64,000 bases of DNA from a virus (taxonomy: Duplodnaviria > Heunggongvirae > Uroviricota > Caudoviricetes). The translations under genes were made by a program, and so were the position numbers. The DNA is taken from positions 6,644 to 70,643 of IMG/VR virus record IMGVR_UViG_3300013102_000003; one strand, given 5' to 3'. The notes beneath the pieces are model-generated. The model searched no databases. It saw only the letters and a list, made by a program, of their open reading frames with translations, and had not been told where the DNA came from. Positions 8,398-21,182 of the stretch are shown piece after piece; position 1 is the stretch's first letter; each line of letters starts with the position of its first letter.

Positions 8398-8825
8398 AGA
8401 TTGGAATCGACATTGGACGTGTCATCATCGGCGGCGAGGGTGAGGATACCATCTTCAACGAGGAGAACTACCTGCTCTCTCCGGAAGTTCCGGGAGCCTA
8501 CAGAGCGGTGAGCAAGCTCGCCAAGCAGCGGCATGAACTCCACATCATCTCCAAGTGTGGGGAAGTTGTGGAGGAACGGTCCATGGACTGGCTGGATGCT
8601 GAGGGATTCTTCTATCACATCCTCCCGCACCGAGTCCATTTCGTGCGGAAGCGCCATCTGAAGTCTCCGATGGCTCTGGCTCTTGAGCTTGACATCTTCA
8701 TTGATGACCGTCTGGACATCATCGACTCCATGGAGCAGACTGTCAAGAACCGCATCCTGTTCATCGACTGGGAGCACGCCAACAGGGAACTGGAGAAGAT
8801 CTTTGACAAAGCTCCTGAAGGGTGA
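8394..8825 (+). CDS. Hypothetical protein
   Basis: 143 aa, start overlaps the stop of the previous gene (ATGA-type). No confident family assignment. Confidence 0.4.
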   Translation: MKIGIDIGRVIIGGEGEDTIFNEENYLLSPEVPGAYRAVSKLAKQRHELHIISKCGEVVEERSMDWLDAEGFFYHILPHRVHFVRKRHLKSPMALALELDIFIDDRLDIIDSMEQTVKNRILFIDWEHANRELEKIFDKAPEG

Positions 8826-8868
8826 TATAGTTAAGATCGTTGGAGCGCATAAACGACTGACAACCGGA

Positions 8869-9012
8869 GAGATGATCGACAAGCTCGGTTTGATTTCTGA
8901 AGTCGTAGATGATACAATGATACGGGTAGGAAAGAATTGGTACCTTACCGAAGAGTTCGAAATCGAACTGCTTCACAGAGAAGTTGACACAGCCTCTCAG
9001 AGTATGGTATAA
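8869..9012 (+). CDS. Small hypothetical protein (47 aa) whose stop codon lies inside a promoter -10
   Basis: ggagag RBS then ATG 8869. It ends …ASQSMV* with the stop inside tggTATAATag. The C-terminus resembles that of the small ORF ending at 11527. Confidence 0.3.
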   Translation, partial: EMIDKLGLISEVVDDTMIRVGKNWYLTEEFEIELLHREVDTASQSMV

Positions 9013-9013
9013 T
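8984..9013 (+). promoter_or_regulatory. Sigma-70-like promoter (TTGACA-18-TGgTATAAT)
   Basis: ttgaca 8984-8989, 18-nt spacer ending tgg, tataat 9008-9013. Member of a motif repeated across the window. Confidence 0.6.
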
Positions 9014-9089
9014 AGAAGTACACGAAGCGCTGGAGAAGGTTACTTCTTTGGGTGAAAACACACTTTCTCTGTTTTTTCTCGTGTCACTT

Positions 9090-9160
9090 AGGTCTTTGGT
9101 GTAGTGGTAACATGTCGGTCTCCAAAACCGTTGTCAGCAGTTCGAACCTGCTAGGACCTG
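9090..9160 (+). tRNA. tRNA-Trp (CCA)
   Basis: Anticodon loop cuCCAaa, T-arm agcag-ttcgaac-ctgct, and a 7-bp acceptor aggtctt/aggacct. Folded by eye. Confidence 0.7.
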
Positions 9161-9209
9161 CAAGTTTGCACAAACTATAAATGTGTGATAGAATGTAGTA
9201 ACACAGCTT

Positions 9210-9283
9210 CGGGCTGTAGCTCAGCTTGGTAGAGCGCCTGTTTTGGGAACAGGAAGTCGCAGGTTCAAATCCTGTCTGCCCGA
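9210..9283 (+). tRNA. tRNA-Pro (TGG)
   Basis: D-arm tagctcagcttggtagagc, anticodon stem cctgt/acagg with loop ttTGGga, T-arm gcagg-ttcaaat-cctgt. Confidence 0.7.
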
Positions 9284-9469
9284 CGAATGACCGATGCGAT
9301 TGAAAAAGATACTTCATCGAATAGATAATATAGGTATCGGCCAAGAGGAAACTCTTGTCCCTAGCACTGGAACCTTCCAGTTTGTTTTTCAGTTTCACAT
9401 GTAGTACAATAGCTTTACCCGCAGTACAAACCTCTTTTTCTGGTTTTTCTCGGTCATACAATTTTGAAA

Positions 9470-9575
9470 GAAGCGCTAGGACTCTGTTACTTCTCGGATG
9501 AAACCGACCGTAACTGGTTGGTGAGGGTTCAAACCCCTCATTACACAGATTCCGCTTTTACTCTTTCATACAATG
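9470..9575 (+). ncRNA. tRNA-like element (GAAGCG…GTTACTTC motif + anticodon-arm-like + T-arm-like hairpins, no acceptor); candidate Y-RNA-like / tRNA-mimic RNA
   Basis: gaagcg 9470-9475 and gttacttc 9486-9493. Hairpin cgacc-gtaactg-ggttg, then gaggg-ttcaaac-ccctc. No complementary acceptor strands. Confidence 0.35.
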
Positions 9576-9647
9576 CGAAAGTAGCTCAGTTGGTAGAGCG
9601 CCTTCCTTCCAAGTAGGATGTCGCGGGTTCGAGTCCCGTCTTTCGCT
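9575..9647 (+). tRNA. tRNA-Gly (TCC)
   Basis: Acceptor gcgaaag/ctttcgc, D-arm tagctcagttggtagagc, anticodon loop cuTCCaa, T-arm gcggg-ttcgagt-cccgt. Confidence 0.7.
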
Positions 9648-9781
9648 CTAGTACAGATGTGATTAGTCAGGTTACTTCCAACTGTTAATTGAAATCAACA
9701 CTTGACTTACCGTGTTCTCTGTATTAAGCTTTAACTGTTATCAGGAATTCCTGAATTGAAAATGACGAAAGGTAAATAAAC

Positions 9782-11407
9782 ATGTCCAAGTTCAACAACA
9801 CTTCTGCCCGCGCTCGCGCTGGTGCAGGTCCAATCAACTCAACCACTGAAACGACCACCTTCAACGGTGCCAAGGGTTTCAACCGTGACGCCAAGTCCGA
9901 ACTCTTCCTCGCTGCTGTCTCCGACTTCGGTGGAGAGGGTTCGTTCTACGAGTCCGCGTCCAACCGCTCTGACCGTATCACCCGACTGACCCATGAGGTC
10001 GCCGTGGCTGACCCGGAGTGGCTGACCCAGTTCACCAACTGGCTTCGTGAAGAGGCCAACATGCGTACGATCTCCCTGACGATTGCTCTGGAAGGTGCCA
10101 AGGCACTCAACACGGCAAACATTCCGGGCGGACGCAAGGTTGTCTCCGGTGCGATCCGTCGTGCCGATGAGGCCGGTGAGGCTCTGGCCTACTGGTTCGC
10201 TGCCCACGGTCGCAAGATCCCTTCTGCCATCAAGCGTGGTATCGCTGACGGGGCTGTCAAGTCCTTCAACGAGTACTCCCTTGCCAAGTACGACACCTCC
10301 TCGCACGGCTTCCGCTTCGGTGACGTGATCGAACTGACCCACCCTTCCCCGAAGGATGACCGCCAGTCCGACCTCTTCAAGTTTGCGCTTGACCGTCGTC
10401 GTGACGCTTCTGCTGAGCCTGCCGAGTCCCTTGTCATGCTCCAGAAGCGCAAGGAATTCCTCGCTCTGTCCTCGGACAAGCAGAAGGCTCTTGTCAACTC
10501 CGGTGAGGCCATTCAGGTTCTCAAGGACGCTGGCCTGACGTGGGAGGTTCTGTCCTCTGCGTACGGTAAGGGTGGCCTCGACGCCAAGGCGTGGGAAGCT
10601 GTAATCCCGTCCATGGGTTACATGGCTCTGCTCCGCAACCTCCGCAGCTTCGAAGAGAAGGGCGTCTCTGAGGCCGTTCTCGCTCAGGTAGCGGCCCGTA
10701 TCGCTGATCCGGAAGAGGTTGCCAAGAGCCGCCAGCTTCCGTTCCGCTTCCTTGCGGCCTACAAGGCGAACTCCGGTTCGCTGCGTTGGGGCTTCCCGCT
10801 GGAGCAGGCTCTCAAGGCCTCTCTGGAGAACGTCCCGGCCCTGAAGGGTAATACCCTGATCCTTGTGGACCGTTCCGGCTCCATGTTCCAGTCGTTCTCC
10901 AAGAACACTGACCTCACCTTTGCGGACTCCGCTGCGATCTTTGGATCTGCTCTGGCTCTGCGTGCTGAAAATGCCACGCTTGTCCAGTTCGGTTCAAGCT
11001 CCGTTGCGGTACCGTTCAAGAAGAGCGACAGCGTTCTGAAGACCATCGAGAAGTTCTCATCCCTCGGTGGAACGGCAACGTACGACGCCATCAAGAACCA
11101 CTTCGATCCGAAGAAGCACACCCGTGTGGTTCTGATCACGGACGAGCAGGCGAACGGGTTCTACCACCGTCTCAACGGCAACAACGCGAACTACTGGAGC
11201 GGCTATGACCGTGTTCAGGGCAACGTCCTCGATGCGGTCCCGGCCAACGTTCCGACGTTCACGTGGAACCTTGAGGGGTACGCGGCAGGCCACGGCGAGT
11301 CCAAGCCCAACCGCACGTACCTCGGTGGACTGTCCGATCAGGCTTTCAAGCTGATCCCGATCCTCGAATCCGGGCGTGATGCCGGATGGCCTTGGGAAAC
11401 TAAGTGA
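9782..11407 (+). CDS. rsr: Ro60-like (TROVE domain) protein with C-terminal vWA domain (Rsr ortholog)
   Basis: 541 aa. Good RBS gaaagg. The C-terminal LILVDRSGSM MIDAS motif marks a vWA domain, and the N-terminal ~350 aa are helical and TROVE-like. TROVE+vWA is the Ro60/Rsr architecture. Confidence 0.6.
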   Translation: MSKFNNTSARARAGAGPINSTTETTTFNGAKGFNRDAKSELFLAAVSDFGGEGSFYESASNRSDRITRLTHEVAVADPEWLTQFTNWLREEANMRTISLTIALEGAKALNTANIPGGRKVVSGAIRRADEAGEALAYWFAAHGRKIPSAIKRGIADGAVKSFNEYSLAKYDTSSHGFRFGDVIELTHPSPKDDRQSDLFKFALDRRRDASAEPAESLVMLQKRKEFLALSSDKQKALVNSGEAIQVLKDAGLTWEVLSSAYGKGGLDAKAWEAVIPSMGYMALLRNLRSFEEKGVSEAVLAQVAARIADPEEVAKSRQLPFRFLAAYKANSGSLRWGFPLEQALKASLENVPALKGNTLILVDRSGSMFQSFSKNTDLTFADSAAIFGSALALRAENATLVQFGSSSVAVPFKKSDSVLKTIEKFSSLGGTATYDAIKNHFDPKKHTRVVLITDEQANGFYHRLNGNNANYWSGYDRVQGNVLDAVPANVPTFTWNLEGYAAGHGESKPNRTYLGGLSDQAFKLIPILESGRDAGWPWETK

Positions 11408-11497
11408 GTCTCTGGCTCCTGTTTCCTCTTGGTATCGCTCTCCTTGCATTTGCGGGAGAGCGGTACAAGGCCCAGCATGGGTCACCGTACGAAGAAG

Positions 11498-11527
11498 TTG
11501 ACAAGGCTTCTGAAGACGTGGTATAAT
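11498..11527 (+). promoter_or_regulatory. Sigma-70-like promoter (TTGACA-18-TGgTATAAT), embedded in the 3' end of a 41-codon ORF
   Basis: gaagttgacaaggcttctgaagacgtggtataatag is near-identical to the 8984 and 14380 copies. Confidence 0.6.
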
Positions 11528-11547
11528 AGATTTACTGATGCGATAGA

Positions 11548-11610
11548 GAAGCGTTACTTCCTTTCATGAAAAAGTTCTGGGTTCGAGTCCCAGTCACCTC
11601 CGGGTGGTAG
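11548..11610 (+). ncRNA. tRNA-like element: GAAGCGTTACTTC motif + T-arm-like hairpin + closed acceptor-like hairpin
   Basis: gaagcg 11548-11553 overlaps gttacttc 11553-11560. T-arm-like ctggg-ttcgagt-cccag is followed by a cacc-tccg-ggtg hairpin. No 5' acceptor or D-arm. Confidence 0.35.
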
Positions 11611-11657
11611 ATTAATTGGCAAATCAAACACGTTTCTCACCTCTTTCTCAGTATAAT

Positions 11658-11732
11658 GCTTCCTTAGCTCAGCACGGCCAGAGCGGCGCTCTTGTAAAGC
11701 GTAGGTCATCGGTTCGAATCCGATAGGAAGCT
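11658..11732 (+). tRNA. tRNA-Thr (TGT)
   Basis: Acceptor gcttcct/aggaagc perfect. Anticodon stem gcgct/agcgt with loop cuTGTaa. T-arm atcgg-ttcgaat-ccgat. Confidence 0.8.
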
Positions 11733-11741
11733 CGATGTTCA

Positions 11742-11835
11742 GAAGCGATTGAAAGCTGTTACTTCATATTGCACATGACCAGTGCCGGTTCGATTCCGGC
11801 TCACGCCCGTATGGGTGTGATAGTGTAAGGGTTCG
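11742..11835 (+). ncRNA. tRNA-like element: motif + T-arm-like hairpin + 7-bp acceptor-like stem closed by a short loop (permuted-tRNA-like order)
   Basis: gaagcg 11742-11747, gttacttc 11758-11765. T-arm gccgg-ttcgatt-ccggc 11784-11800. tcacgcc (11801-11807) pairs 7/7 with the downstream ggtgtga (11814-11820). Confidence 0.35.
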
Positions 11836-11886
11836 CACGGAAAACACACAGAGTTCGCCTTTTTCTCTGGACACTAAATTTATACC

Positions 11887-12029
11887 GAAGCGACGTGTCA
11901 AGTTACTTCATAGGAAACAGTGGGTCGCAGGTTCAAATCCTGCTCTCCCGACTTCATCGGGAGGTAGCTCAGTCCGGATAGAGCAACCGTATAGCAAATC
12001 ACTTGACCAGCCTTTTCTCGGTATATTAT
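11887..12029 (+). ncRNA. tRNA-like element: motif + T-arm + acceptor 3' strand followed (not preceded) by complementary acceptor 5' strand and D-arm; no anticodon arm
   Basis: gaagcg 11887-11892, gttacttc 11903-11910. T-arm gcagg-ttcaaat-cctgc. tctcccg, then a 7-nt loop acttcat, then cgggagg + tagctcagtccggatagagc (D-arm-like). The sequence then degenerates. Confidence 0.35.
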
Positions 12030-12103
12030 GGCACTGTAGCTCAGTTGGACAGAGTACTGGATTGAAAACCCAGAGGCCACGGGTTCGAATCCCGTTGGTG
12101 CCA
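12030..12103 (+). tRNA. tRNA-Phe (GAA)
   Basis: D-arm tagctcagttggacagagt, loop auuGAAaa, T-arm acggg-ttcgaat-cccgt, acceptor ggcactg/tggtgcc with G-U pairs. Confidence 0.7.
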
Positions 12104-12113
12104 CGTAAGACCT

Positions 12114-12184
12114 TCCCCTGTAGTGTAACGGCAGCACGAGAGCCTTTGGATCTCTTAGCCTAGGTTCGAATCCCAGTGGGGGAT
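12114..12184 (+). tRNA. tRNA, probably Gln (TTG); non-standard D-arm
   Basis: Loop cuTTGga, T-arm ctagg-ttcgaat-cccag (1 mismatch), acceptor tcccctg/tggggga. Isotype assignment is uncertain. Confidence 0.45.
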
Positions 12185-12229
12185 CTATGGTATAATGATA
12201 GAGTTACGTAACACACACTAGGAGTTCAA

Positions 12230-12427
12230 ATGGCTATTCCAGCTAACAGTTCAAAGATGTCGGAAAACCTCCGTCACGTCAATCAGGGTGCTCGCCCTGC
12301 CGAAATTACCGAGAACCAGCGCATTGCGCTGCGCGACGACTCCCCTGCCGGTGACTCCACTGGCGAGTCACACGCGACCGAGAACTCGGAAAACAAGCGT
12401 ATCGGGACCGTAGTCTACCCGGCTTAA
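12230..12427 (+). CDS. Small hypothetical protein (65 aa)
   Basis: Strong RBS aggag. It is preceded by a tggtataat promoter and followed by a terminator. Confidence 0.45.
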   Translation: MAIPANSSKMSENLRHVNQGARPAEITENQRIALRDDSPAGDSTGESHATENSENKRIGTVVYPA

Positions 12428-12440
12428 TCATTACCTGATT

Positions 12441-12480
12441 AAGGGGCTGACTACTACCAAGTAGTCGGCCCCTTTTTCTT
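12441..12480 (+). terminator. Rho-independent terminator
   Basis: aaggggctgactact-acca-agtagtcggcccctt followed by tttctt. Confidence 0.7.
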
Positions 12481-12551
12481 ACCCACATCGTATAACGGCA
12501 ATACAACGGTTTCTGGTACCGTTAATTGAGGTTCGAATCCTTGTGTGGGTG
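12481..12551 (+). tRNA. tRNA-Gln (CTG)
   Basis: Acceptor acccaca/tgtgggt perfect. Anticodon stem acggt/accgt with loop uuCTGgu. Confidence 0.65.
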
Positions 12552-12564
12552 CGCAGCACAATAA

Positions 12565-12637
12565 GGTCGCTTAGCTCAGCAGGTAGAGCGCCACTCTGAT
12601 AAGGTGGATGTCGTGGGTTCAAGTCCCACAGTGGCCA
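12565..12637 (+). tRNA. tRNA-Ile (GAT)
   Basis: D-arm tagctcagcaggtagagcg, stem ccact/ggtgg with loop cuGATaa, T-arm gtggg-ttcaagt-cccac. Confidence 0.7.
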
Positions 12638-12655
12638 CGTAATATAACTGAATAA

Positions 12656-12727
12656 GCCCCCATAGTCTATGGGTTAAGATTCTGGATTTTCACTCCGGGG
12701 TATCGAGTTCGAGTCTCGGTGGGGGTA
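12656..12727 (+). tRNA. tRNA-Glu (TTC)
   Basis: Acceptor gccccca/tgggggt. Stem ctgga/tccgg with loop uuTTCac. T-arm tcgag-ttcgagt-ctcgg. Confidence 0.65.
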
Positions 12728-12728
12728 C

Positions 12729-12864
12729 GGGAAAGTAGCTCAAGGTAGAGTGCTTGGCGTCGTGACGGTTGCAAACGGAACGTGCCCATGTTGGGGTTGA
12801 TCACCTAGCGTGTCGGTTTGTAGCCGAAGCGGATGAGGGTATCGCAGTCCGTCCTTTCCTGTCT
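12729..12864 (+). pseudogene. tRNA fragment/pseudogene (acceptor+D-arm only) plus another GAAGCG motif copy
   Basis: gggaaagtagctcaaggtagagt (tRNA 5' third) with no anticodon or T-arm. ccgaagcgg lies at ~12823. Confidence 0.3.
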
Positions 12865-12938
12865 GGTCCATTAGGCGAATTGGCCAAGCCGTCACCCTCT
12901 CACGGTGAAGATTAGGGGTTCGAGTCCCCTATGGACTA
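12865..12938 (+). tRNA. tRNA-Glu (CTC)
   Basis: Every element checks to the nucleotide. Acceptor ggtccat/atggact, D ggc-gaattggccaa-gcc, perfect stem tcacc/ggtga with loop cuCTCac, T-arm agggg-ttcgagt-cccct. Confidence 0.65.
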
Positions 12939-13141
12939 CGCGGAGCAGTAGAGCAGAATGACTCGCTCTCCGAGAGTTAGCAGGTAGCTTTTAAACTGCC
13001 TGCCAAATTATCGGATAAACGTTGGATTGGTCTCCAGCCTGCAATGCCAATGGAGTCTCCAGCCGATAGATGGCGGCGGCAGCAGTCTTGAAAACTGCCT
13101 GAGGTAAAACTCGTGTGGGTTCGACCCCCACAGGCTCCGCT
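12939..13141 (+). ncRNA. ~200-nt RNA with tRNA-like termini (perfect 7-bp acceptor gcggagc/gctccgc + T-arm) enclosing structured internal region; tmRNA-like or Y-RNA-like candidate
   Basis: 5' gcggagc 12940-12946 is the exact reverse complement of gctccgc 13134-13140, which directly follows the T-arm gtggg-ttcgacc-cccac. An internal perfect hairpin gcagt-cttgaaa-actgc lies at 13082-13098. Confidence 0.35.
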
Positions 13142-13248
13142 GACTCGACACTTGTAGCAAACAGGTGGTCATCAAAATGCTGGTAATGCTTGCGAGTAGC
13201 TAAGGCCAGACTGGTGCCAGTCCAACCGCCAGATGATTGTTGGACATT

Positions 13249-13333
13249 GGAAGAGAACCGAATGGCTAGGGACCGTCTTGGAAAGACGGTGCGGGTGTGA
13301 AAGCCCATGCGGGTTCGAACCCCGCCTCTTCCG
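13249..13333 (+). tRNA. tRNA-Ser (GGA), type II with long variable arm
   Basis: Acceptor ggaagag/ctcttcc perfect. Anticodon stem ccgtc/gacgg perfect with loop uuGGAaa. Variable arm ggg-tgtgaaag-ccc. T-arm gcggg-ttcgaac-cccgc. Confidence 0.7.
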
Positions 13334-13401
13334 CGAGTTGCACACTGGCATAGTCTTCGATAGACTATGACTACGCATCCAATACAAGGAAAAGGATTAC
13401 T

Positions 13402-14379
13402 ATGTTTATTGAACCCATGCTGGCCTCCAGCACTCCCGAGAAGAAGCGTGCTACGCTCTCCGACACAACTGGCTACGTGCTGGAACCCAAGCACGACGGC
13501 ATGCGGGCGGTCATCTCCAAGCGCGACGGAGAGGTCAAGATCTACAGCCGAGTCGGTCTGGAGTATCAGGAACACCTCCCGGCCCTTGTCTCGCAGCTTT
13601 CCCATCTCCCTGACGGAACCACCCTTGACGGTGAACTCATGATCGTCAGACACCGTACCGTCATTGACGGACACACGATTGCTGTGGCTGACTTCAACGC
13701 CACGATGCGTATCATGGGTTCCGGCCCGGAAAAGGCGATCAAGCGTCAGGAAGAGAGCACGATTGAGTTCTGTGTGTTCGACATGCCAAAGCTTGACGGA
13801 GTAAACCTCATGGGTTCATCCTACGACTCTCGGATGTTCGCCCTGAACGACTACCTCACCGGCAAGGAATGGATGATGCCTCACGTCTTCCAGAACGCAC
13901 GACTTACGGAGTGGGACAACGACTTCATCGACAAGCTGATGGCAGCAGGCATTGAGGGCGCGATCCTCAAGAACGTAGACTCGGTCTACATTCCGGGCAA
14001 GCGACGTGCCAACACGTGGTACAAGGTCAAGGCCGAACTCACCGCTGACGTGGTCGTAATGGGCTACACGGACGCCAAGGAAGGCAAGACAGGCAAATGG
14101 CTGGGAAAGGTAGGGGCACTAATTTTCGGTGCCTACAATGACCAGCAGGAGCTTGTGGAGGTCGGCCAGTGTTCCGGCATGACCGATGCAGAGCGTGACC
14201 GCTGGACATCGATCCGTGATTACGATACGGAGAATGCTCTCCGAGTCATCGAAGTGAAGTACAATGATCTGGTCGGTTCCGGCGAGTTCGGAACCCCGCG
14301 CCACCCGCAGTTCAAGATTGAGCGCATCGACAAGAACCCTGATGACTGCCTGATGGAGCAGTTCCGACTCGACAAGTAG
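13402..14379 (+). CDS. ATP-dependent DNA ligase
   Basis: Adenylation motif I LEPKHDGMRAV (KxDG). 325 aa, of minimal phage-ligase size, with downstream OB-like region motifs. Confidence 0.75.
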   Translation: MFIEPMLASSTPEKKRATLSDTTGYVLEPKHDGMRAVISKRDGEVKIYSRVGLEYQEHLPALVSQLSHLPDGTTLDGELMIVRHRTVIDGHTIAVADFNATMRIMGSGPEKAIKRQEESTIEFCVFDMPKLDGVNLMGSSYDSRMFALNDYLTGKEWMMPHVFQNARLTEWDNDFIDKLMAAGIEGAILKNVDSVYIPGKRRANTWYKVKAELTADVVVMGYTDAKEGKTGKWLGKVGALIFGAYNDQQELVEVGQCSGMTDAERDRWTSIRDYDTENALRVIEVKYNDLVGSGEFGTPRHPQFKIERIDKNPDDCLMEQFRLDK

Positions 14380-14409
14380 TTGACACCGCCTCTAAAAGGG
14401 TGGTATAAT
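14380..14409 (+). promoter_or_regulatory. Sigma-70-like promoter (TTGACA-18-TGgTATAAT) driving the next tRNA cluster
   Basis: ttgacaccgcctctaaaagggtggtataatagag lies directly after the ligase stop codon. Confidence 0.65.
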
Positions 14410-14442
14410 AGAGTAACAGTTCGGGATCTGTAAAATCCCAAT

Positions 14443-14515
14443 GGTTCTTTAGCTCAGTTGGTAGAGCGCGACTTTTACACAGTTGATGTCATGGGTTCGA
14501 GTCCCTTAGGAACCA
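14443..14515 (+). tRNA. tRNA-Val (TAC)
   Basis: D-arm tagctcagttggtagagc, stem cgact/agttg with loop uuTACac, acceptor ggttctt/aggaacc. Confidence 0.65.
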
Positions 14516-14588
14516 CGGAGAGCAGTTAACGGCTCTCAAGCAGATTGTGTGGGTTCGATTCCCTGCTGGTTGCAACACATCTGCGCTT
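14516..14588 (+). pseudogene. tRNA-like fragment (D-arm-like + T-arm-like hairpins, no acceptor pairing or anticodon arm)
   Basis: gagc-agttaacg-gctc then tgggttcgattccc. No complement for the ggagagc 5' end. Confidence 0.3.
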
Positions 14589-14669
14589 GCTCTCGTGGCG
14601 GAATGGCAGACGCGCTGGCTTCAAAACCCGGTATCGCAAGGTGTGTGGGTTCGAGTCCCACGGGGAGCA
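14589..14669 (+). tRNA. tRNA-Leu (CAA), type II
   Basis: Leu-type D-arm ggcggaatggcagacgcgc, loop cuuCAAaa, extended variable region, T-arm gtggg-ttcgagt-cccac. The acceptor has one mismatch. Confidence 0.55.
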
Positions 14670-14675
14670 CTGTAC

Positions 14676-14749
14676 GGCCCGGTAACTCAGACGGTAAGAG
14701 TGCCACTCTTATAAGGTGGAAGTCGAGGGATCAATACCCTCTCGGGCTA
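14676..14749 (+). tRNA. tRNA-Ile (TAT) with atypical T-loop
   Basis: Acceptor ggcccgg/tcgggct, D-stem actc/gagt, stem ccact/ggtgg with loop cuTATaa, T-arm gaggg-atcaata-ccctc (non-canonical loop). Confidence 0.5.
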
Positions 14750-14761
14750 CGCAACAAATAT

Positions 14762-14834
14762 GCCTCCATAGCTCAGTGGATAGAGCGCTTCGCTACGGAC
14801 GAAGAGGTCGGGAGTTCGAATCTCTCTGGGGGCA
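14762..14834 (+). tRNA. tRNA-Arg (ACG)
   Basis: D-arm tagctcagtggatagagc, stem cttcg/cgaag with loop cuACGga, T-arm gggag-ttcgaat-ctctc. Confidence 0.75.
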
Positions 14835-15049
14835 CTGATGTGTGAAAGATCGGCATGTTGTCGGAGTCTAAGGTCATAACTTGGATTGGTGGGTTCATCA
14901 CCCATACCGGTTGAATTCCGGATAGCACGTCACTAGGGAGTGTAAAGCAGTCAGGTGACTGTCTCTGTTTGCTAAACAGATGGTGGGTAAAACCATGGGA
15001 CTCGGTCTCTCTGCACTCCGCGTGAATACTCTAAAGAAATACTAGAAGG

Positions 15050-15274
15050 ATGGGTAATATGGATAGCGTAGAATCAATCCTAGTAGAAGAAGTTGAACTT
15101 CTCAAGAAAATCCTCGCATCGGTGGAGAATATCACAGGTATGCGCGAGATCCATGTACGCCTACCAGACGGTTCGGTAGAAATCTTGAAGCTGGAAGCAC
15201 GGGCAGAGGAACACGAGGAACTTCTTAGAAAGGCTGAACAACGGCTTGACACGTACCGCGAAAGTCTGGTATAA
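15050..15274 (+). CDS. Hypothetical protein (74 aa, coiled-coil-like) inside the tRNA array
   Basis: RBS aaggatgg. The ORF's last codons and stop form a tggtataatagag promoter -10. Confidence 0.45.
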   Translation: MGNMDSVESILVEEVELLKKILASVENITGMREIHVRLPDGSVEILKLEARAEEHEELLRKAEQRLDTYRESLV

Positions 15275-15275
15275 T
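15246..15275 (+). promoter_or_regulatory. Sigma-70-like promoter (TTGACA-18-TGgTATAAT)
   Basis: ttgacacgtaccgcgaaagtctggtataat. Drives tRNA-Leu(GAG) onward. Confidence 0.6.
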
Positions 15276-15286
15276 AGAGTAACAAT

Positions 15287-15369
15287 GTGAGTGTGGCGGA
15301 ATGGCAGACGCGCTAGCTTGAGGTGCTAGTGTCCTTATGGACGTGTGGGTTCGACTCCCATCATTCACA
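15287..15369 (+). tRNA. tRNA-Leu (GAG), type II
   Basis: Acceptor gtgagtg/cattcac. Leu D-arm gcggaatggcagacgcgc. Perfect stem ctagc/gctag with loop uuGAGgu. Variable arm gtcc-ttat-ggac. Confidence 0.7.
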
Positions 15370-15374
15370 CTGAG

Positions 15375-15403
15375 TTGACAGGTTCTTCGGAAGCTGGTAG
15401 ACT
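15375..15403 (+). promoter_or_regulatory. Sigma-70-like promoter (TTGACA-17-TAGACT)
   Basis: ttgacaggttcttcggaagctggtagact. Confidence 0.45.
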
Positions 15404-15536
15404 TGAATTATTCAGGAGGGGCGCGGTTCCTCTTTCTGACTAGGTAAGCGAAGCAGGCATGCAGATACCCTAGCTTGACCGTTGTACAGCGATCCACATT
15501 CTGTGATGGACCTCACTGCAACGGAAACCGCAGCAA

Positions 15537-15619
15537 GCCCAATTGGCGGAATGGCAGACGCGCTAGGTTTAGGCCCTAGTGGGGGTAACCCCGTGCGAGT
15601 TCGACTCTCGTGTTGGGCA
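15537..15619 (+). tRNA. tRNA-Leu (TAG), type II
   Basis: Acceptor gcccaat/gttgggc. Leu D-arm. Perfect stem ctagg/cctag with loop uuTAGgc. Variable arm gggg-taa-cccc. Confidence 0.7.
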
Positions 15620-15635
15620 CGAGTTTTTTGGTCTT
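15607..15635 (+). terminator. Terminator hairpin formed by tRNA-Leu(TAG) 3' end + downstream complement, followed by T6
   Basis: ctcgtg-ttggg-cacgag then tttttt. Confidence 0.5.
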
Positions 15636-15736
15636 TCTACTCAATAGAATAGACTAGGTTGACAACCTTCTAGATCATGAGCTAGAGTACAGTTTGGAAC
15701 GTTCGATCCAGAGGGTATACACTCGAAAGCGAACTT

Positions 15737-15809
15737 GCCTCTGTAGCTCAGTGGACAGAGCAGGACCCTTCTAAAGTCTTGGTCGCAGGTTCGAATCCTG
15801 CTAGGGGCG
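15737..15809 (+). tRNA. tRNA-Arg (TCT)
   Basis: D-arm tagctcagtggacagagc, loop cuTCTaa, T-arm gcagg-ttcgaat-cctgc, acceptor gcctctg/taggggc. Confidence 0.6.
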
Positions 15810-15919
15810 CGTTGTATGGACAAGGAGTCGGTAAGACTTTGTGTTCCACAGTTTCACCTATAGACTCTTTGCAGGGTGATATCGTCGTCGCAAAGGACAC
15901 AAGGCACCATCAACAATAT

Positions 15920-15991
15920 GTCTCTGTAGCTCAGCGGTAGAGCAGCGCACTCTTAATGCGCGGGTCGTGGGTTCGAACCCCACCGGGGACA
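15920..15991 (+). tRNA. tRNA-Lys (CTT)
   Basis: Perfect stem gcgca/tgcgc with loop cuCTTaa, T-arm gtggg-ttcgaac-cccac. Confidence 0.7.
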
Positions 15992-16012
15992 CGCAACAAC
16001 TGAATAAACAAT

Positions 16013-16095
16013 GGCAGTGTATCCAAGAGGACAAAGGGTGCTGACTGTAAATCAGATGTCGTAAGACTTCGTGAGTTCGAATCTCACCGCTGCCG
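16013..16095 (+). tRNA. tRNA-Tyr (GTA), type II
   Basis: Acceptor ggcagtg/cgctgcc perfect. Loop cuGTAaa. Long variable arm. T-arm gtgag-ttcgaat-ctcac. Confidence 0.6.
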
Positions 16096-16099
16096 CCAA

Positions 16100-16170
16100 G
16101 GGTCTATCGTTCAAAGGCAGGACCGCTGGCTTTTACCCAGCAGATGCGGTTTCGAGATCCGCTGGACCCA
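16100..16170 (+). tRNA. tRNA-Lys (TTT)
   Basis: Stem gctgg/ccagc with loop cuTTTac, T-arm gcggt-ttcgaga-tccgc, acceptor gggtcta/tggaccc. Confidence 0.65.
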
Positions 16171-16213
16171 CCACTATAGAGTATAATGGAACTACCAACA
16201 AGTAGGAGTTCCA

Positions 16214-16519
16214 GTGCTCGACAACCTCAAGACAAAATTCTACCTCTTCTGGGACAAATTCCAGAATGACCCCGTATTCTCTCGCAAGCTCAACGGATGG
16301 CTGGCGGTCATCTGGCTCGCAGCGTCCCTCCCGATCTGCATCTTCCTCTCAACATCTGTACCGTTCCTAGTGTTCGTCTCCGTGTACGCCATTGTCGCAA
16401 GCCACTGGAGCACGTGGCAGGCCTCACGAGTTGAGGTCAGGCAGGCGGAAGATTCCGTTGCCGAAGACATCCTCAAAGAACTCGATGAGAAGACCGATGT
16501 TGTGGTCACCAGAAAATAA
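16214..16519 (+). CDS. Membrane protein (2 TM helices)
   Basis: 101 aa with hydrophobic segments WLAVIWLAASLPICIFL and VPFLVFVSVYAIVASHW. A tataat promoter precedes it. Confidence 0.45.
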   Translation: MLDNLKTKFYLFWDKFQNDPVFSRKLNGWLAVIWLAASLPICIFLSTSVPFLVFVSVYAIVASHWSTWQASRVEVRQAEDSVAEDILKELDEKTDVVVTRK

Positions 16520-16599
16520 TGGTACAATAGTACTCTAGCGGACCGGCACCGCCTACAATCGAGTAGGCCGTGTCGGTCCCGTCAATTTAGGGGAGATCA

Positions 16600-16770
16600 T
16601 GAACCGCGAAGAGAAGATTTACATGGCCTACAAGGTTGCTCTGGCTGCTGCCAAGAAGGACAACGAAGCCACCGCCTCAATCCTAGCCATGATCCACACC
16701 GCCAAGGCTTTCAAGATCTCCGTGTTCACGATGCTTGACATTGCGAAAAGGCGCGGGAAAAAGAAGTAGC
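16600..16770 (+). CDS. Small basic protein (56 aa), not in ORF track
   Basis: RBS ggggag then ATG 16600. Lys-rich C-terminus. A structured 5' leader lies at 16536-16585. Confidence 0.35.
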
Positions 16771-16820
16771 AGGCTGGGGAGCCGCTTCGGCATCAACCAC
16801 CCACTAAAGATAGATATACT

Positions 16821-17228
16821 ATGTTCGATGAAATACCGTACACCCTTGTTGTCCCTGACTACACATACTACGCCTACGTAAATGATTGGACTGACGGTGA
16901 TACCGTCGATCTCCAGATCGTTGTCAAGCTGGACTTTGGGTTCCACAACTACAGCGCCCACCTCTTCAAGCTCAAGATGCGCCTGAACGGCCTTGACACT
17001 CCCGAGAACGGGCAGGTCAATCACGATGAGGCTACCGCATTCTCAGAGGCTCAGGCACCCGCTGGAACGCTTCTCAGGGCCAAGATCTTCAAGATGCCTA
17101 AGAACTACGCCAACACAGAGAAGTACGGACGCTATTTGGTGGAACTCTTCGAAAATGGTGAGAGCATCAATGAAGCCCTGCTTGCCTCTGGACTGGCGAA
17201 GAAGTACGATGGCGGAAAGAAATCTTGA
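16821..17228 (+). CDS. Staphylococcal-nuclease-like (SNase/thermonuclease) endonuclease
   Basis: DGDT…RLNGLDTPE…KYGRYL recapitulates the SNase catalytic signature. Confidence 0.65.
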   Translation: MFDEIPYTLVVPDYTYYAYVNDWTDGDTVDLQIVVKLDFGFHNYSAHLFKLKMRLNGLDTPENGQVNHDEATAFSEAQAPAGTLLRAKIFKMPKNYANTEKYGRYLVELFENGESINEALLASGLAKKYDGGKKS

Positions 17229-17299
17229 CAAACTGCCGCGCAGTGTGATAGTCGGCTGATGGTACAATAGAGTATAACAAACACTCTAAGGAGCCTTGA

Positions 17300-18082
17300 G
17301 TGACTACCATCAACGAATCCCACACAGCCAAGGGCTACACGCCTGCTGCTTACGTGAAGTCTGTCTTTGGGCAGGCCCGTACAATCGAGTCCATCACAAT
17401 CCACCACTGGGGCGTCTTCGGACAGAAGCACGACGACGTTGTGCGCTTTTTCGAGTCCGGACCCGGAACCACGTCGGCTCACTTTGTCGTCTCTGCTGGC
17501 CGCATTGACTGTCTGGTCAGCCCAGTAGATGCCGCGTGGCATGCAGGGTCGGCCAAGGGCAACGCTACCAGCATCGGAATTGAATGCCATCCAGAGGCAA
17601 CTCCGGAAGACTATGAGACTGTAGCAGAACTGATCCGTTTCCTGAGAACCGCCTACGGAAATTTGCCGCTCATTCCCCACCGCCAATGGCACGCAACAGC
17701 CTGCCCCGGAATCTGGGACCTTGCCAAGCTCGACAAGCTCGCAAAGGTTCAAGCGGCTGTCTCACCCGAATCTTCAACCGTCACACCTAACACACCAACG
17801 CCAACGAAAGAAGGCAAAATGCTCGTCATTACACAGTCCAAGGGAGACCCCGCAATCTGGATCGGTGACGGTGTTAGCCGCCGCCACATCCCAGACCCGA
17901 AGACCCTTGCAGATTACCAGAAGCTCGCCGCTTGGGGCGTCCTAAGCATCTACAAGAACGGCGAGATCCAGAACTTCCCACCGGAAACACTCGGTGCTGA
18001 CGTATCTAGCCAGAAGATTGAAGCCGTACAGGCTGAGGCTATCGCTGCTCGCGCAGCGGCCCTTGTGAAGGCCACTAAGTAA
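17300..18082 (+). CDS. N-acetylmuramoyl-L-alanine amidase (Amidase_2/PGRP-type lysin)
   Basis: HHWG…AHFVVS…AWHAG…IGIECH zinc-amidase motifs, plus a C-terminal putative wall-binding region. Confidence 0.7.
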   Translation: MTTINESHTAKGYTPAAYVKSVFGQARTIESITIHHWGVFGQKHDDVVRFFESGPGTTSAHFVVSAGRIDCLVSPVDAAWHAGSAKGNATSIGIECHPEATPEDYETVAELIRFLRTAYGNLPLIPHRQWHATACPGIWDLAKLDKLAKVQAAVSPESSTVTPNTPTPTKEGKMLVITQSKGDPAIWIGDGVSRRHIPDPKTLADYQKLAAWGVLSIYKNGEIQNFPPETLGADVSSQKIEAVQAEAIAARAAALVKATK

Positions 18083-18101
18083 GACCCACCGCGCTACATT
18101 G

Positions 18102-18140
18102 AAGGGCAGGAGAGGAATTTGACTCTCCTGCCCTTTGTTG
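18102..18140 (+). terminator. Terminator-like hairpin after amidase
   Basis: aagggcaggagag-N9-ctctcctgccctt (13-bp stem) followed by tgttgtt. Confidence 0.55.
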
Positions 18141-18220
18141 TTATACTATTGAGACCTGTCCATGCCGACCCCCCAACAAGAAAGAATAAGGCAGCCTAGC
18201 AACAACGACCCATAGGAATT

Positions 18221-18877: not shown

Positions 18878-19006
18878 CAGATCTAAATCTGGTACAATGG
18901 TATTGCCAGCGCTTCTCGGCAGAGGGATGAAGCTCATATCTTCGTCTGAGCGGGATCGACACCCGCCGTTGGTACTGTAAGATCAAGCAAACGACGAAAG
19001 AGAAAT

Positions 19007-19588: not shown

Positions 19589-19610
19589 TCGCTGACAAGT
19601 TAGGTATACG

Positions 19611-19850
19611 ATGAAACAAAGAGATTTTGAGAAGATTTCGATCAGCAATGGAAACTTTCAAGGACTGAAGGTAGGGTTCGTATGCCCTCACCGACTATCT
19701 TATGAGGCTACAGAGAAAATCCTCGTACTTCTGCATAAGGTAAACGCACTGGCGTCGGATAAGAGCAACTTCATCACAGATGAGGAAGCCTCCGAACTGG
19801 ATGCCAGTGGTAAGATCCCCACGATAGACGCAGACGATTTCGATGACTGA
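19611..19850 (+). CDS. Hypothetical protein (79 aa)
   Basis: ORF with overlap into the next gene. No family recognised. Confidence 0.35.
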   Translation: MKQRDFEKISISNGNFQGLKVGFVCPHRLSYEATEKILVLLHKVNALASDKSNFITDEEASELDASGKIPTIDADDFDD

Positions 19851-20849: not shown

Positions 20850-20875
20850 CAAGTAAGTAAATGGTATGGTATAAT
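20846..20875 (+). promoter_or_regulatory. Sigma-70-like promoter (TTGACA-18-TGgTATAAT) for tRNA cluster
   Basis: ttgacaagtaagtaaatggtatggtataat. Confidence 0.6.
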
Positions 20876-20888
20876 TAATGTTATACCT

Positions 20889-20965: not shown

Positions 20966-20975
20966 CGAGGGCGTA

Positions 20976-21099: not shown

Positions 21100-21182
21100 C
21101 GCAATTTAATGCCGCGAGGCCGTTAAACATCCCAAAAGGCGACTGGACCCAAACAGAGGTATGATCTACCACACAGATCAAT

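What the first reader, a model, noticed from the sequence alone, without database searches (positions are those of the whole stretch)
9024..12830. Repeated bipartite motif GAAGCG-N(0-11)-GTTACTTC at six to seven sites, all inside the tRNA/Ro region
Seen in sequence: GTTACTTC occurs at 9039, 9486, 9679, 11553, 11758 and 11903, with a degenerate copy near 9310 (…gatacttcat). Five of them are preceded by GAAGCG at a variable distance of 0 to 11 nt. GAAG/CTTC can form the base of a small stem. An 8-mer is expected about once per strand in 64 kb. In five cases a T-arm-like hairpin lies 15-35 nt downstream. Two copies sit about 10 nt after promoter -10 elements (9008, 11522), so the motif begins the transcript. 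Possible roles include a Ro-binding helix, an RNase processing signal for the polycistronic tRNA precursors, or a leader element.
Basis: seen in the sequence. Interest (0 to 1): 0.7.

Follow-up and report, generated by a model that had tools for sequence, protein, structure and literature searches.

The report
Seven phage Y RNA genes flanking Ro
The repeated motif is real and marks seven unannotated small RNA genes of the known "Y RNA" class (partners of the Ro60 RNA-binding protein) packed between tRNA genes on both sides of the phage's Ro gene; this is an expanded example of a known system, not a new kind of element.

Summary
GTTACTTC occurs six times on the + strand between 9039 and 11909 (1.3 expected), plus one GATACTTC at 9308. 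The motif is more regular than reported: all seven copies have a box G-A-(A/T)-G-(C/T)-G exactly 9-10 nt upstream (0.025 such hits expected per window).

Each pair of boxes lies on the 5' strand of a two-helix stem that closes a 69-171 nt RNA. The seven RNAs (Y1-Y7) abut tRNA genes within 1-5 nt and flank a Ro60 (TROVE+vWA) gene.

Across 107 other Ro loci the bipartite motif occurs 135 times, always on the Ro strand, 125 times within 800 nt upstream of Ro. Three sister Arthrobacter phages without Ro have none.

A covariance model built only from chromosomal Streptomyces-type rsr-linked RNAs recovers Y5, Y6 and Y7 full length (E 2e-5 to 9e-9).

The boxes correspond to published YrlA features: box 1 to the proposed Ro60-binding motif GNCGAAN0-1G, and box 2 to the conserved YUAY hinge.

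The GAAG/CTTC stem and the 0-11 nt variable spacing are not supported.

Verdict: new members of a known kind, moderately interesting for copy number (seven) and module diversity.

The parts
8984..9013 (+). Promoter P1 (TTGACA-18-TATAAT, TG-extended); the predicted start lies at about 9020, the first pair of Y1's outer helix
   Evidence: 12/12 match; sequence
9018..9086 (+). Y1: short hairpin-type Y RNA (69 nt). Box 1 GAAGCG 9024-9029; box 2 GTTACTTC 9039-9046; inner helix GAGAAGGT/ACTTTCTC; outer helix ACACGA/TCGTGT. Ends 4-5 nt before tRNA-Trp (9090).
   Evidence: joint helix score 11.5 against a non-cognate 95th percentile of 9.5; the Atuin ortholog has AAGAACGT/ACGTTCTT
9287..9457 (+). Y2: 171-nt Y RNA with a non-tRNA-like internal module. 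Box 1 GATGCG 9293-9298; box 2 GATACTTC 9308-9315; inner helix GAAAAAGA/TCTTTTTC; outer helix ATGACCGA/TCGGTCAT. Starts 2 nt after tRNA-Pro.
   Evidence: score 16 of 16; five orthologs; two internal hairpins with compensatory changes
9464..9569 (+). Y3: 106-nt Y RNA with a T-arm-like hairpin only. Box 1 GAAGCG 9470-9475; box 2 9486-9493; inner helix GACTCTGT/ACAGATTC; outer helix TGAAAGA/TCTTTCA. Ends 5 nt before tRNA-Gly.
   Evidence: orthologs have GATTCCGT/ACGGATTC (L008) and AAAACTGA/TCAGTTTT (L007)
9650..9725 (+). Y4: short hairpin-type Y RNA (76 nt). Box 1 GATGTG 9656-9661; box 2 9671-9678; inner helix AGTCAGGT/ACTTGACT; outer helix GTACAGA/TCTGTAT. Starts 1 nt after tRNA-Gly and lies 56 nt upstream of the Ro start codon.
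   Evidence: score 15
9782..11407 (+). Ro60/Rsr ortholog (541 aa; TROVE plus vWA domains)
   Evidence: ORF; TROVE 63.6 bits, VWA_2; Thermus phage phiLo Ro60, PDB 9KOP, E 2.5e-31; annotated 'Ro-like RNA binding protein' in Atuin, 70.9% identity
11498..11527 (+). Promoter P2 (TTGACA-18-TATAAT, TG-extended); the predicted start lies at about 11534, the first pair of Y5's outer helix
11531..11655 (+). Y5: tRNA-like (YrlA-type) Y RNA. Box 1 GATGCG 11537-11542; box 2 11553-11560; inner helix AGAAGCGT/ACGTTTCT; outer helix TACTGA/TCAGTA; T arm, short acceptor-like hairpin and D-arm-like hairpin. Ends 2 nt before tRNA-Thr.
   Evidence: model R1, 37 bits, E 2.5e-6, full length; Rfam YrlA partial, 26.4 bits
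11736..11873 (+). Y6: tRNA-like (YrlA-type) Y RNA. Box 1 GAAGCG 11742-11747; box 2 11758-11765; T arm, 8-bp acceptor-like stem and D-arm-like hairpin. Starts 2 nt after tRNA-Thr.
   Evidence: R1, 32.9 bits, E 2e-5, full length
11881..12025 (+). Y7: tRNA-like (YrlA-type) Y RNA. Box 1 GAAGCG 11887-11892; box 2 11902-11909; inner helix GTCAAGT/ACTTGAC; outer helix TATACCGA/TCGGTATA; T arm, 7-8-bp acceptor-like stem and canonical D arm. Ends 4 nt before tRNA-Phe.
   Evidence: R1, 48 bits, E 9e-9, full length; Rfam YrlA 29.4 bits, full length, below the gathering score of 69
9090..9648 (+). Interleaved tRNA genes of the upstream cluster: Trp 9090-9161, Pro 9210-9284 and Gly 9575-9648. Their ends define the Y RNA ends.
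11658..12185 (+). Interleaved tRNA genes of the downstream cluster: Thr 11658-11733, Phe 12030-12104 and Gln 12114-12185

Best explanation
The bipartite motif is the conserved 5'-strand signature of a family of Y RNAs, the small non-coding RNAs that bind Ro60/Rsr. The window encodes seven of them (Y1-Y7), four upstream and three downstream of the phage's Ro60 gene.

All seven share one module:
- an outer helix of 6-8 bp formed by the RNA's two ends
- an internal loop whose 5' side is box 1 (GAWGYG plus 3-4 nt) and whose 3' side is a 9-10 nt T-rich strand ending in TC
- an inner helix of about 8 bp
- box 2, whose G and T/A close the inner helix and whose invariant TACTTC is an unpaired hinge

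Beyond the hinge the RNAs differ: a small loop in Y1 and Y4, a T-arm only in Y3, a permuted tRNA-like domain (T arm, acceptor-like hairpin, D arm) in Y5-Y7, and an unrelated structured module in Y2.

Shown: the sequences, the helices, their covariation, homology of Y5-Y7 to chromosomal rsr-linked RNAs, and strict co-occurrence with Ro.

Inferred:
- The shared module is the Ro-binding module. Box 1 corresponds to the published GNCGAAN0-1G / CGAA determinant, and box 2 to the YUAY hinge that kinks the RNA.
- The variable modules tether different partners to the phage Ro60, for example host PNPase or tRNA-binding enzymes.
- The RNAs are made from two strong promoters as Y RNA-tRNA polycistrons. 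RNase P and the tRNA 3' processing enzymes, by cutting out the tRNAs, would also release the Y RNAs.
For: - Motif enrichment and fixed spacing.
- Helices specific to each copy: an element's own 5' strands give a joint helix score of 12.0, against 6.9 for 5' strands borrowed from other elements. 87% of 150 elements exceed the borrowed-strand 95th percentile, and all seven window copies score 11.5-16.
- Per-pair counts on 31 distinct elements of the window and its five closest relatives: 92.9% of cells paired versus 35-53% when slid; covariation 0.83 versus 0.12-0.17; 13 of 16 pairs with double changes.
- Independent homology: model R1, built from 41 chromosomal Streptomyces-type RNAs only, finds Y7, Y5 and Y6 full length at exactly the hand-delimited coordinates. 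Its structure holds in the phage copies: 91% paired versus about 40% slid, and 34 of 38 pairs with double changes.
- Link to YrlA: the Rfam YrlA model matches Y7 full length at 29.4 bits and chromosomal relatives at 42-45 bits, E about 1e-8. It aligns GUGCGCAGG to the GNCGAAN0-1G region.
- Co-occurrence with Ro: 135 + strand and 0 - strand hits in 107 Ro loci, 125 of them within 800 nt upstream of Ro. There are none, and no R1 hit, in the Ro-less sister phages Racecar, Mimi and Talia1610, which have the same tRNAs tightly packed. 78 of 100 stringent-motif hits in IMG/VR have Ro just downstream.
- Ro gene identity.
- Promoters at the 5' ends of Y1 and Y5. Y RNA ends lie 1-5 nt from tRNA ends.
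- Literature: PMC4201824 (YrlA motifs; YrlA+YrlB from one precursor; Yrn2-tRNA-Yrn1 polycistron; YrlAs in 22 phages). bioRxiv 10.1101/312249 (the UA of YUAY kinks the RNA). PMC12135203 (a phage Ro60 binds phage Y-like RNAs through CGAA in an internal bulge and recruits host PNPase).
Against: - No expression or binding data exist for this phage.
- No element reaches Rfam's YrlA gathering score (best 29.4 bits against 69).
- The match of box 1 to GNCGAAN0-1G is approximate (for example UGCGAUUG, AGCGCUGG) and its register is uncertain.
- Y1-Y4 lack the tRNA-like domain and are assigned only by the shared module and context.
- In the core alignment the 3' strands were located by complementarity, and the R1 alignment is fitted to the model, so both pair counts are inflated. 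The non-cognate control and the slid controls mitigate this.
- The boxes are nearly invariant, so covariation cannot say whether they pair, and nothing here shows which protein reads them.
Confidence: 0.85

Rival explanations
1. The motif is a processing signal, for example an RNase E, RNase III or RNase P guide site, for maturation of the polycistronic tRNA precursors. On this view the surrounding hairpins are spacer structures without a function of their own.
For: The elements abut tRNA genes within 1-5 nt, and the 3' strand carries a T-rich single-stranded stretch that could be an RNase E site.
Against: - The window has 29 tRNAs, but the motif occurs only in the 3 kb around Ro. None lies in the tRNA spacers from 12.1 to 26.3 kb.
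- Sister phages have the same tRNA order but no Ro, no motif, and spacers of only 4-74 nt.
- The motif sits next to chromosomal rsr genes; the four chromosomal loci scanned by Rfam showed no tRNA hits.
Confidence: 0.04
2. The elements are cis-regulatory leaders of the Ro mRNA, for example sites of autoregulation by Ro or of attenuation, rather than separate RNA genes.
For: Y4 lies 56 nt upstream of the Ro start codon. In most chromosomal loci the motif lies about 170 nt upstream of rsr on the same strand. Two copies start transcripts.
Against: - Three copies (Y5-Y7) lie downstream of Ro behind their own promoter and are followed by tRNAs.
- Copies are separated from Ro by tRNA genes, which are excised.
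- In M. smegmatis, YrlA and YrlB, likewise encoded upstream of rsr (not compared by sequence with the elements here), are stable, Rsr-bound RNAs processed from a precursor (PMC4201824).
Confidence: 0.05
3. The elements are decayed or rearranged tRNA genes (pseudogenes, or remnants of tRNA-dimer recombination) that share sequence only through common descent and have no present function.
For: Y3 and Y5-Y7 contain T-arm-like hairpins, and Y5-Y7 also D-arm-like hairpins. Y7's T arm resembles tRNA-Pro and tRNA-Arg(tct) (20 of 29 positions). Tandem tRNAs give false YrlA hits (21500-21612).
Against: - Compensatory changes maintain the helices between orthologs and paralogs.
- The boxes are invariant from Streptomyces chromosomes to phages with 39-88% Ro identity.
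- Y1, Y2 and Y4 have no tRNA-like part at all.
- Loss of Ro goes with loss of all copies.
Confidence: 0.03

Closest known systems
YrlA and YrlB of Mycobacterium smegmatis and other Actinobacteria (Chen et al. 2014, PMC4201824; Rfam RF02553)
   Same: - Encoded next to rsr/Ro60 on the same strand.
- The 5' and 3' ends pair into a stem carrying a conserved 5'-strand motif, followed by YUAY.
- The tRNA-like module runs in the order T arm, acceptor-like hairpin, D arm.
- A second, shorter Y RNA lies alongside.
- Y6 and Y7 have 7-8-bp acceptor-like stems, like the RNase P-cleaved M. smegmatis YrlA.
- Chromosomal Streptomyces-type relatives share both boxes and recognise Y5-Y7 by covariance model.
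   Different: - Seven genes instead of two.
- They lie on both sides of Ro and are interleaved with tRNA genes.
- Box 1 is GA(A/T)G(C/T)G rather than GGTGCG.
- The sequence is AT-richer, with a T-rich 3' loop strand.
- Scores are below Rfam's gathering threshold.
- One member (Y2) has a module with no tRNA resemblance.
Yrl1/Yrl2 and phiRo60 of Thermus phage phiLo (PMC12135203)
   Same: A phage-encoded Ro60 with phage-encoded Y-like RNAs beside it, built as stem, internal bulge, stem, with a CGAA-type motif needed for binding. The window's Ro is the closest sequence match to that solved protein.
   Different: Two RNAs there, seven here. tRNA-like modules are not described for phiLo. The window's boxes are of the actinobacterial type. 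PNPase recruitment was shown there and is only inferred here.
YrlA-like RNAs of mycobacteriophages such as ET08 (22 phages in PMC4201824)
   Same: Phage Ro60 ortholog with an adjacent tRNA-like Y RNA in a tRNA-rich actinophage genome.
   Different: I could not retrieve those sequences, so identity of the boxes and copy number was not compared. The Arthrobacter-phage lineage was not among the genomes available in 2014 (from my own knowledge of when these phages were sequenced).
Deinococcus radiodurans Yrn1/Yrn2 (PMC4201824)
   Same: Several Y RNAs lie upstream of rsr and are transcribed as one precursor together with a tRNA (Yrn2-tRNA-Asp-Yrn1).
   Different: The Ro-binding helix is of the metazoan type, and the T and D arms run in a different orientation. 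It is a separate lineage.

Membership tests
YrlA-type bacterial Y RNA (PMC4201824; Rfam RF02553) | Encoded within 4 kb of a Ro60/Rsr (TROVE) gene, on the same strand | tested here: met
   All seven lie within 770 nt of ORF 9782-11407, on the + strand. The same holds in 107 other Ro loci.
YrlA-type bacterial Y RNA (PMC4201824; Rfam RF02553) | The 5' and 3' ends pair into a long stem | tested here: met
   Outer and inner helices are specific to each copy, with compensatory changes.
YrlA-type bacterial Y RNA (PMC4201824; Rfam RF02553) | GNCGAAN0-1G motif near the 5' end (proposed Ro60 contact) | tested here: inconclusive
   Box 1 plus the next bases read AGCGCUGG, UGCGAUUG, AGCGCUAG, UGUGAUUAG, UGCGAUAG, AGCGAUUG and AGCGACGU, which are approximate matches only. 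Rfam aligns the chromosomal GUGCGCAGG to this motif. The register in the phage copies is uncertain.
YrlA-type bacterial Y RNA (PMC4201824; Rfam RF02553) | Conserved YUAY after the stem, at the start of the variable-loop region | tested here: met
   UUAC in six copies and AUAC in one, immediately after the inner helix. TACTTC is invariant in 41 chromosomal relatives.
YrlA-type bacterial Y RNA (PMC4201824; Rfam RF02553) | tRNA-like domain in the order T arm, acceptor-like stem-loop, D arm | tested here: met
   Met for Y5, Y6 and Y7. Not met for Y1, Y2 and Y4 (no such domain) or Y3 (T arm only).
YrlA-type bacterial Y RNA (PMC4201824; Rfam RF02553) | Score at or above Rfam's gathering threshold (69 bits) | tested here: not met
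   The best is 29.4 bits for Y7. Chromosomal Streptomyces-type relatives also fail at 42-45 bits, though with E about 1e-8, so the threshold excludes this whole actinobacterial branch.
YrlA-type bacterial Y RNA (PMC4201824; Rfam RF02553) | Bound by the Ro60/Rsr protein in vivo | not testable with these tools
   Needs RIP/CLIP or EMSA.
Short hairpin Y RNAs (YrlB / Yrn2 type, PMC4201824) | Long hairpin formed by the two ends, carrying the Ro-binding motif, with only a small loop; encoded beside a tRNA-like Y RNA and rsr | tested here: inconclusive
   Y1 (69 nt) and Y4 (76 nt) fit the description and share both boxes and both helices with Y5-Y7. Similar short forms sit beside tRNA-like forms in chromosomal loci such as L058 and L048. 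No curated model of this type exists to score against.
Metazoan-type Y RNA (Rfam RF00019) | Match to the family model | tested here: not met
   No hit at E <= 1 to 10 in 8500-27000.
tRNA | Cloverleaf in canonical order with an anticodon arm | tested here: not met
   ARAGORN calls none of the seven. Rfam tRNA gives only 26.5 bits, below its threshold of 29, on part of Y5. The T arm precedes the D arm.

The most novel reading that the evidence does not exclude
This Arthrobacter-phage lineage may have expanded the Y RNA repertoire to 5-7 genes that share one Ro-binding module but carry at least four different outer modules. One of these (Y2, about 120 nt) is conserved, structured and unlike tRNA. 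A single phage Ro60 would then be programmed by interchangeable RNA adaptors to act on several host targets, such as PNPase, tRNA-processing or tRNA-cleaving defence enzymes. The invariant UACUUC hinge would be an actinobacterial-lineage Ro60 recognition determinant that has not been described. A few viral contigs appear to carry such RNAs without Ro (L187, L191, L132). This hints that some phages may supply only the adaptor and use the host's Ro60.
Probability: 0.25. Interest if true: 0.6.

Novelty: new member of a known kind. Interest (0 to 1): 0.35.

Why it matters
**Annotation.** It assigns about 830 nt of "intergenic spacer" in a tRNA-rich jumbo-phage region to seven specific RNA genes. 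The same applies to Arthrobacter phage Atuin, where the record annotates only tRNAs and the Ro protein.

**A gap in Rfam.** The curated YrlA model misses the entire actinobacterial and actinophage branch at its threshold. A simple bipartite pattern, G[AG][AT]G[CT]G-N9-10-G[TA]TACTTC, finds that branch with almost no false positives.

**A possible experimental system.** One Ro60 with seven Y RNAs carrying four module types is the richest prokaryotic or viral Y RNA set I am aware of (my own knowledge, not tested). Naturally Ro-less sister phages could serve as controls. This could make the open question of what bacterial and phage Y RNA modules recruit more tractable.

Tried and rejected
- **Rfam at gathering thresholds on 17 Ro loci:** only tRNAs and Scr4115, no YrlA. 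This reflects the model's narrowness and is not evidence of absence.
- **First heuristic for finding 3' partners** (best inner strand, then outer): it failed for chromosomal copies because of a conserved A.C mismatch. I replaced it with an outer-strand search and then a joint search.
- **MAFFT alignment of 13 short-form elements (A2):** it misaligned the variable 3' strand, so I built no core covariance model from it.
zero covariation and uncompensated breaks.
- **A V-arm formed by UUC of box 2 with a downstream GAA:** seen by eye in several phage copies but not conserved in chromosomal relatives; not pursued.
- **Origin of the Y modules from particular phage tRNAs:** only Y7 shows modest similarity, to tRNA-Pro and tRNA-Arg; inconclusive.
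- **An eighth element at the GAAGCG near 12825:** rejected, since there is no box 2 and no matching helices. The alignment with relatives (A6) was uninformative because my L007 coordinates were arbitrary.
- **Supplementary tables of PMC4201824** (list of phage YrlAs): not held, so no direct comparison with mycobacteriophage copies.

Full report
**1. The observation**

GTTACTTC occurs seven times in the 64-kb window against 1.3 expected. Six copies are on the + strand, between 9039 and 11909. The "degenerate" copy is GATACTTC at 9308.

The region holds a 541-aa ORF (9782-11407) with TROVE and vWA domains. Its closest solved relative is the Ro60 of Thermus phage phiLo. The ORF is flanked by tRNA genes. 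The nearest database relative is Arthrobacter phage Atuin, with about 81% DNA identity and 71% Ro identity.

**2. The motif is more regular than described**

I wrote the upstream box as G[AG][ATG]G[CT]G. On that definition, 150 of 161 + strand G[TA]TACTTC hits in the window plus 115 fetched loci have the box exactly 9 nt (127) or 10 nt (23) upstream. This includes all seven window copies.

At 11553 the GAAGCG that abuts the second box belongs to the inner helix. The homologous box there is GATGCG at 11537. The bipartite pattern is expected 0.025 times per shuffled window; seven are seen, all on the + strand.

**3. Anatomy**

In every copy, the 6-8 nt before box 1 plus its first two bases (GA) pair with a strand that begins TC, 60-160 nt downstream. 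This is the outer helix. The 6 nt before box 2 plus its first two bases pair with a strand that ends 9-10 nt before the outer partner. This is the inner helix.

The resulting elements are:

| Element | Coordinates |
|---|---|
| Y1 | 9018-9086 |
| Y2 | 9287-9457 |
| Y3 | 9464-9569 |
| Y4 | 9650-9725 |
| Y5 | 11531-11655 |
| Y6 | 11736-11873 |
| Y7 | 11881-12025 |

The helix sequences differ from copy to copy and between orthologs, yet they stay complementary. Y7 has GTCAAGT/ACTTGAC where Atuin has ATCAAG/CTTGAT. Y1 has GAGAAGGT/ACTTTCTC where Atuin has AAGAACGT/ACGTTCTT.

As a control, I compared each element's own 5' strands with 5' strands borrowed from other elements, on the same downstream sequence:

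| Measure | Own strands | Borrowed strands |
|---|---|---|
| Mean joint helix score (of 16) | 12.0 | 6.9 |
| 95th percentile | n/a | 9.5 |

Of the 150 elements, 87% exceed the borrowed-strand 95th percentile. The seven window copies score 11.5-16.

On a collapsed core alignment of 31 distinct elements from the window, Atuin and four IMG/VR relatives:
- 92.9% of cells pair, against 35-53% when the partner is slid.
- The covariation score is 0.83, against 0.12-0.17.
- 13 of 16 pairs show double changes.
- The T/A of box 2 covaries with its partner (UA 16, AU 5).

Caveat: the 3' strands in this alignment were located by complementarity.

TACTTC itself is unpaired in the consensus and invariant. 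Box 1's (G)YG may form a 2-3 bp helix with the bases that directly follow the inner 3' strand: 85% and 70% paired at offset 0, against 29-63% at other offsets. These positions hardly vary, so I only flag this.

**4. What lies inside the stems**

- Y5, Y6 and Y7 contain a T arm, an acceptor-like hairpin and a D arm, in that order.
- Y3 has only a T arm.
- Y1 and Y4 are short hairpins.
- Y2 has a roughly 120-nt module with two hairpins that show compensatory changes in five orthologs.

**5. Relatives**

Atuin, which has Ro, carries six such elements. Its sister phages Racecar, Mimi and Talia1610 have the same tRNAs in the same order but no Ro. They have spacers of 4-74 nt, no bipartite motif and no model hit.

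The motif is not specific to phages. In 107 Ro loci, both viral contigs and Streptomyces, Kitasatospora and Nonomuraea chromosomes, it occurs 135 times on the Ro strand and never on the other strand. Of these, 125 lie within 800 nt upstream of Ro. Chromosomal loci mostly have one copy, with a maximum of three. The window's lineage has 5-7.

A stringent 17-base version of the motif found 100 hits in the 80 IMG/VR loci listed, out of 95 matching stretches:
- 78 have Ro just downstream.
- 8 lie at the ends of stored sequence.
- 10 are one unrelated coding sequence that recurs in related contigs.
- 3 look like genuine elements without Ro in the stored stretch.

**6. Independent homology test**

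I aligned 41 chromosomal RNAs of about 140 nt, with no phage sequence. The consensus structure has an outer helix, an inner helix, a third helix and T, AS and D arms, and 18 of 38 pairs carry compensatory changes.

The covariance model built from this alignment (R1) finds three full-length matches in the 64-kb window, at exactly the coordinates I had delimited by hand:

| Element | Bits | E-value |
|---|---|---|
| Y7 | 48 | 9e-9 |
| Y5 | 37 | 2.5e-6 |
| Y6 | 32.9 | 2e-5 |

The only other strong hit, 21521-21582, is partial and spans the tRNA-Asp/His junction. This is the false-positive type that Chen et al. warn about.

On the phage matches the model's structure is 91% paired, against about 40% when slid, and 34 of 38 pairs show double changes. 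That alignment is fitted to the model.

**7. Comparison with what is known**

Chen et al. 2014 (PMC4201824) describe YrlA RNAs as follows:
- They are encoded beside Ro60/Rsr.
- Their ends form a stem.
- A 5' motif GNCGAAN0-1G is the proposed Ro60 contact.
- A conserved YUAY begins the variable-loop region.
- A tRNA-like T-AS-D module follows.

They also report that a second, shorter Y RNA accompanies YrlA, that M. smegmatis YrlA and YrlB come from one precursor, that D. radiodurans Yrn2, tRNA-Asp and Yrn1 are co-transcribed, and that 22 phages carry YrlAs.

Wang et al. 2018 (bioRxiv 10.1101/312249) show that the UA of YUAY kinks the RNA between the Ro-binding and tRNA-like modules.

PMC12135203 shows that a phage Ro60 binds two phage Y-like RNAs through CGAA in an internal bulge. 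It also recruits host PNPase and attenuates its activity.

Rfam's YrlA model matches Y7 full length at 29.4 bits and chromosomal relatives at 42-45 bits (E about 1e-8). It aligns their GUGCGCAGG to the GNCGAAN0-1G region. All of these scores are below the curated 69-bit cut-off.

On this evidence, box 1 corresponds to the proposed Ro60-binding motif, although its register is uncertain in the phage copies. Box 2 corresponds to the last pair(s) of the stem plus the YUAY hinge.

**8. Mechanism**

Shown: seven structured RNA genes share one module and are strictly linked to Ro.

Inferred:
- The only parts common to Y1-Y7 are the two helices, box 1, the T-rich 3' loop strand and box 2. Together these most likely form the Ro60-binding module, and the variable parts are effector modules.
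- Two perfect TG-extended promoters, at 8984-9013 and 11498-11527, put transcription starts on the first pairs of Y1 and Y5.
- The Y RNA ends lie 1-5 nt from tRNA ends. Excision of the tRNAs would therefore release the Y RNAs. The Y2/Y3 and Y6/Y7 junctions (6-7 nt) would need another nuclease.

**9.

The "Ro-binding" option is partly right. The GAAG/CTTC stem has no support. The processing-signal and leader readings do not fit the motif's distribution (section 5).

**10. Verdict**

The feature is real and explained: unannotated Y RNA genes, which are new members of a known kind. What is mildly notable is the copy number (seven), the module diversity including Y2, the clean natural presence/absence contrast with Ro-less sister phages, and the fact that the curated Rfam model misses this whole branch.

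Noticed in passing
L002, L003, L004 (Arthrobacter phages Racecar, Mimi, Talia1610) versus L001 (Atuin) and window 9018-12025: Ro and all its Y RNAs are present or absent together as a cassette within an otherwise collinear tRNA array. The Ro-less phages have the same tRNA order (Trp, Pro, Gly, Thr, Phe, Gln) with spacers of 4-74 nt.
   Followed up: yes
window 9316-9440 (inside Y2): The Y2 module is unlike tRNA. It has two hairpins (about 9339-9360 and 9366-9381) with compensatory changes in five orthologs, and a repeated GTAGTAC...GCAGTAC. Box 2 (GATACTT) can also pair locally with AGGTATC at 9332-9338. No Rfam match.
   Followed up: partly
L187 2130-2280, L191 1463-1610, L132 6939-7010: Three IMG/VR contigs carry elements with both boxes and good helices (tRNA-like in L187 and L191) but no TROVE gene in the stored 8-12 kb. 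L187's element directly follows a tRNA-Arg. L191 has a vWA-only ORF 2.5 kb downstream. These are possible 'orphan' phage Y RNAs; the full contigs were not checked.
   Followed up: partly
window 12729-12864: This 136-nt spacer lies between tRNA-Glu(ttc) and tRNA-Glu(ctc). It starts like a tRNA (GGGAAAG + GTAGCTCAAGGTAGAG) and closes with CCUUUCC, but no tRNA is called (MFE -50.8 kcal/mol, z -2.2). It contains the lone GAAGCG at 12825 and is not alignable to Atuin's spacer.
   Followed up: partly
window 13249-13333: Rfam's tRNA model scores 38.8 bits here (above its threshold), but ARAGORN calls nothing. Atuin annotates tRNA-Ser(gga) right after tRNA-Ser(tga), the same relative position.
   Followed up: no
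window 21500-21612: tRNA-Asp and tRNA-His are separated by 1 nt. Together they score as YrlA (35.6 bits, Rfam) and partially with my model R1 (33.6 bits). This is the known dimeric-tRNA false positive, and it fits the proposal that YrlA arose from tRNA dimers.
   Followed up: yes
window 12187-12474: A 65-aa ORF (12230-12427) sits inside the tRNA array, with a TATAAT-like -10 sequence (ggtataat, about 12189-12196) upstream and the strongest terminator-like hairpin of the region (12441-12474). An ORF at the same position is annotated as a hypothetical protein in Atuin, Racecar, Mimi and Talia1610.
   Followed up: no
window 11919-11948 versus 9255-9284: Y7's T arm plus 3' acceptor-like strand (gtcgcaggttcaaatcctgctctcccga) is nearly identical to that of the phage's own tRNA-Pro (gtcgcaggttcaaatcctgtctgcccga). 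This could reflect recent exchange or a shared origin. The other Y modules show no such match.
   Followed up: partly
L088 1111-1222, L111 1118-1227, L113 1119-1230 (- strand): Rfam Scr4115 (a Streptomyces sRNA) matches above threshold about 2.3 kb upstream of rsr, on the opposite strand, in three chromosomal loci.
   Followed up: no
window 26167-26243: A weak, fragmentary Rfam tmRNA match (17.9 bits, E 0.001) lies between tRNA-Thr(ggt) and tRNA-Cys.
   Followed up: no
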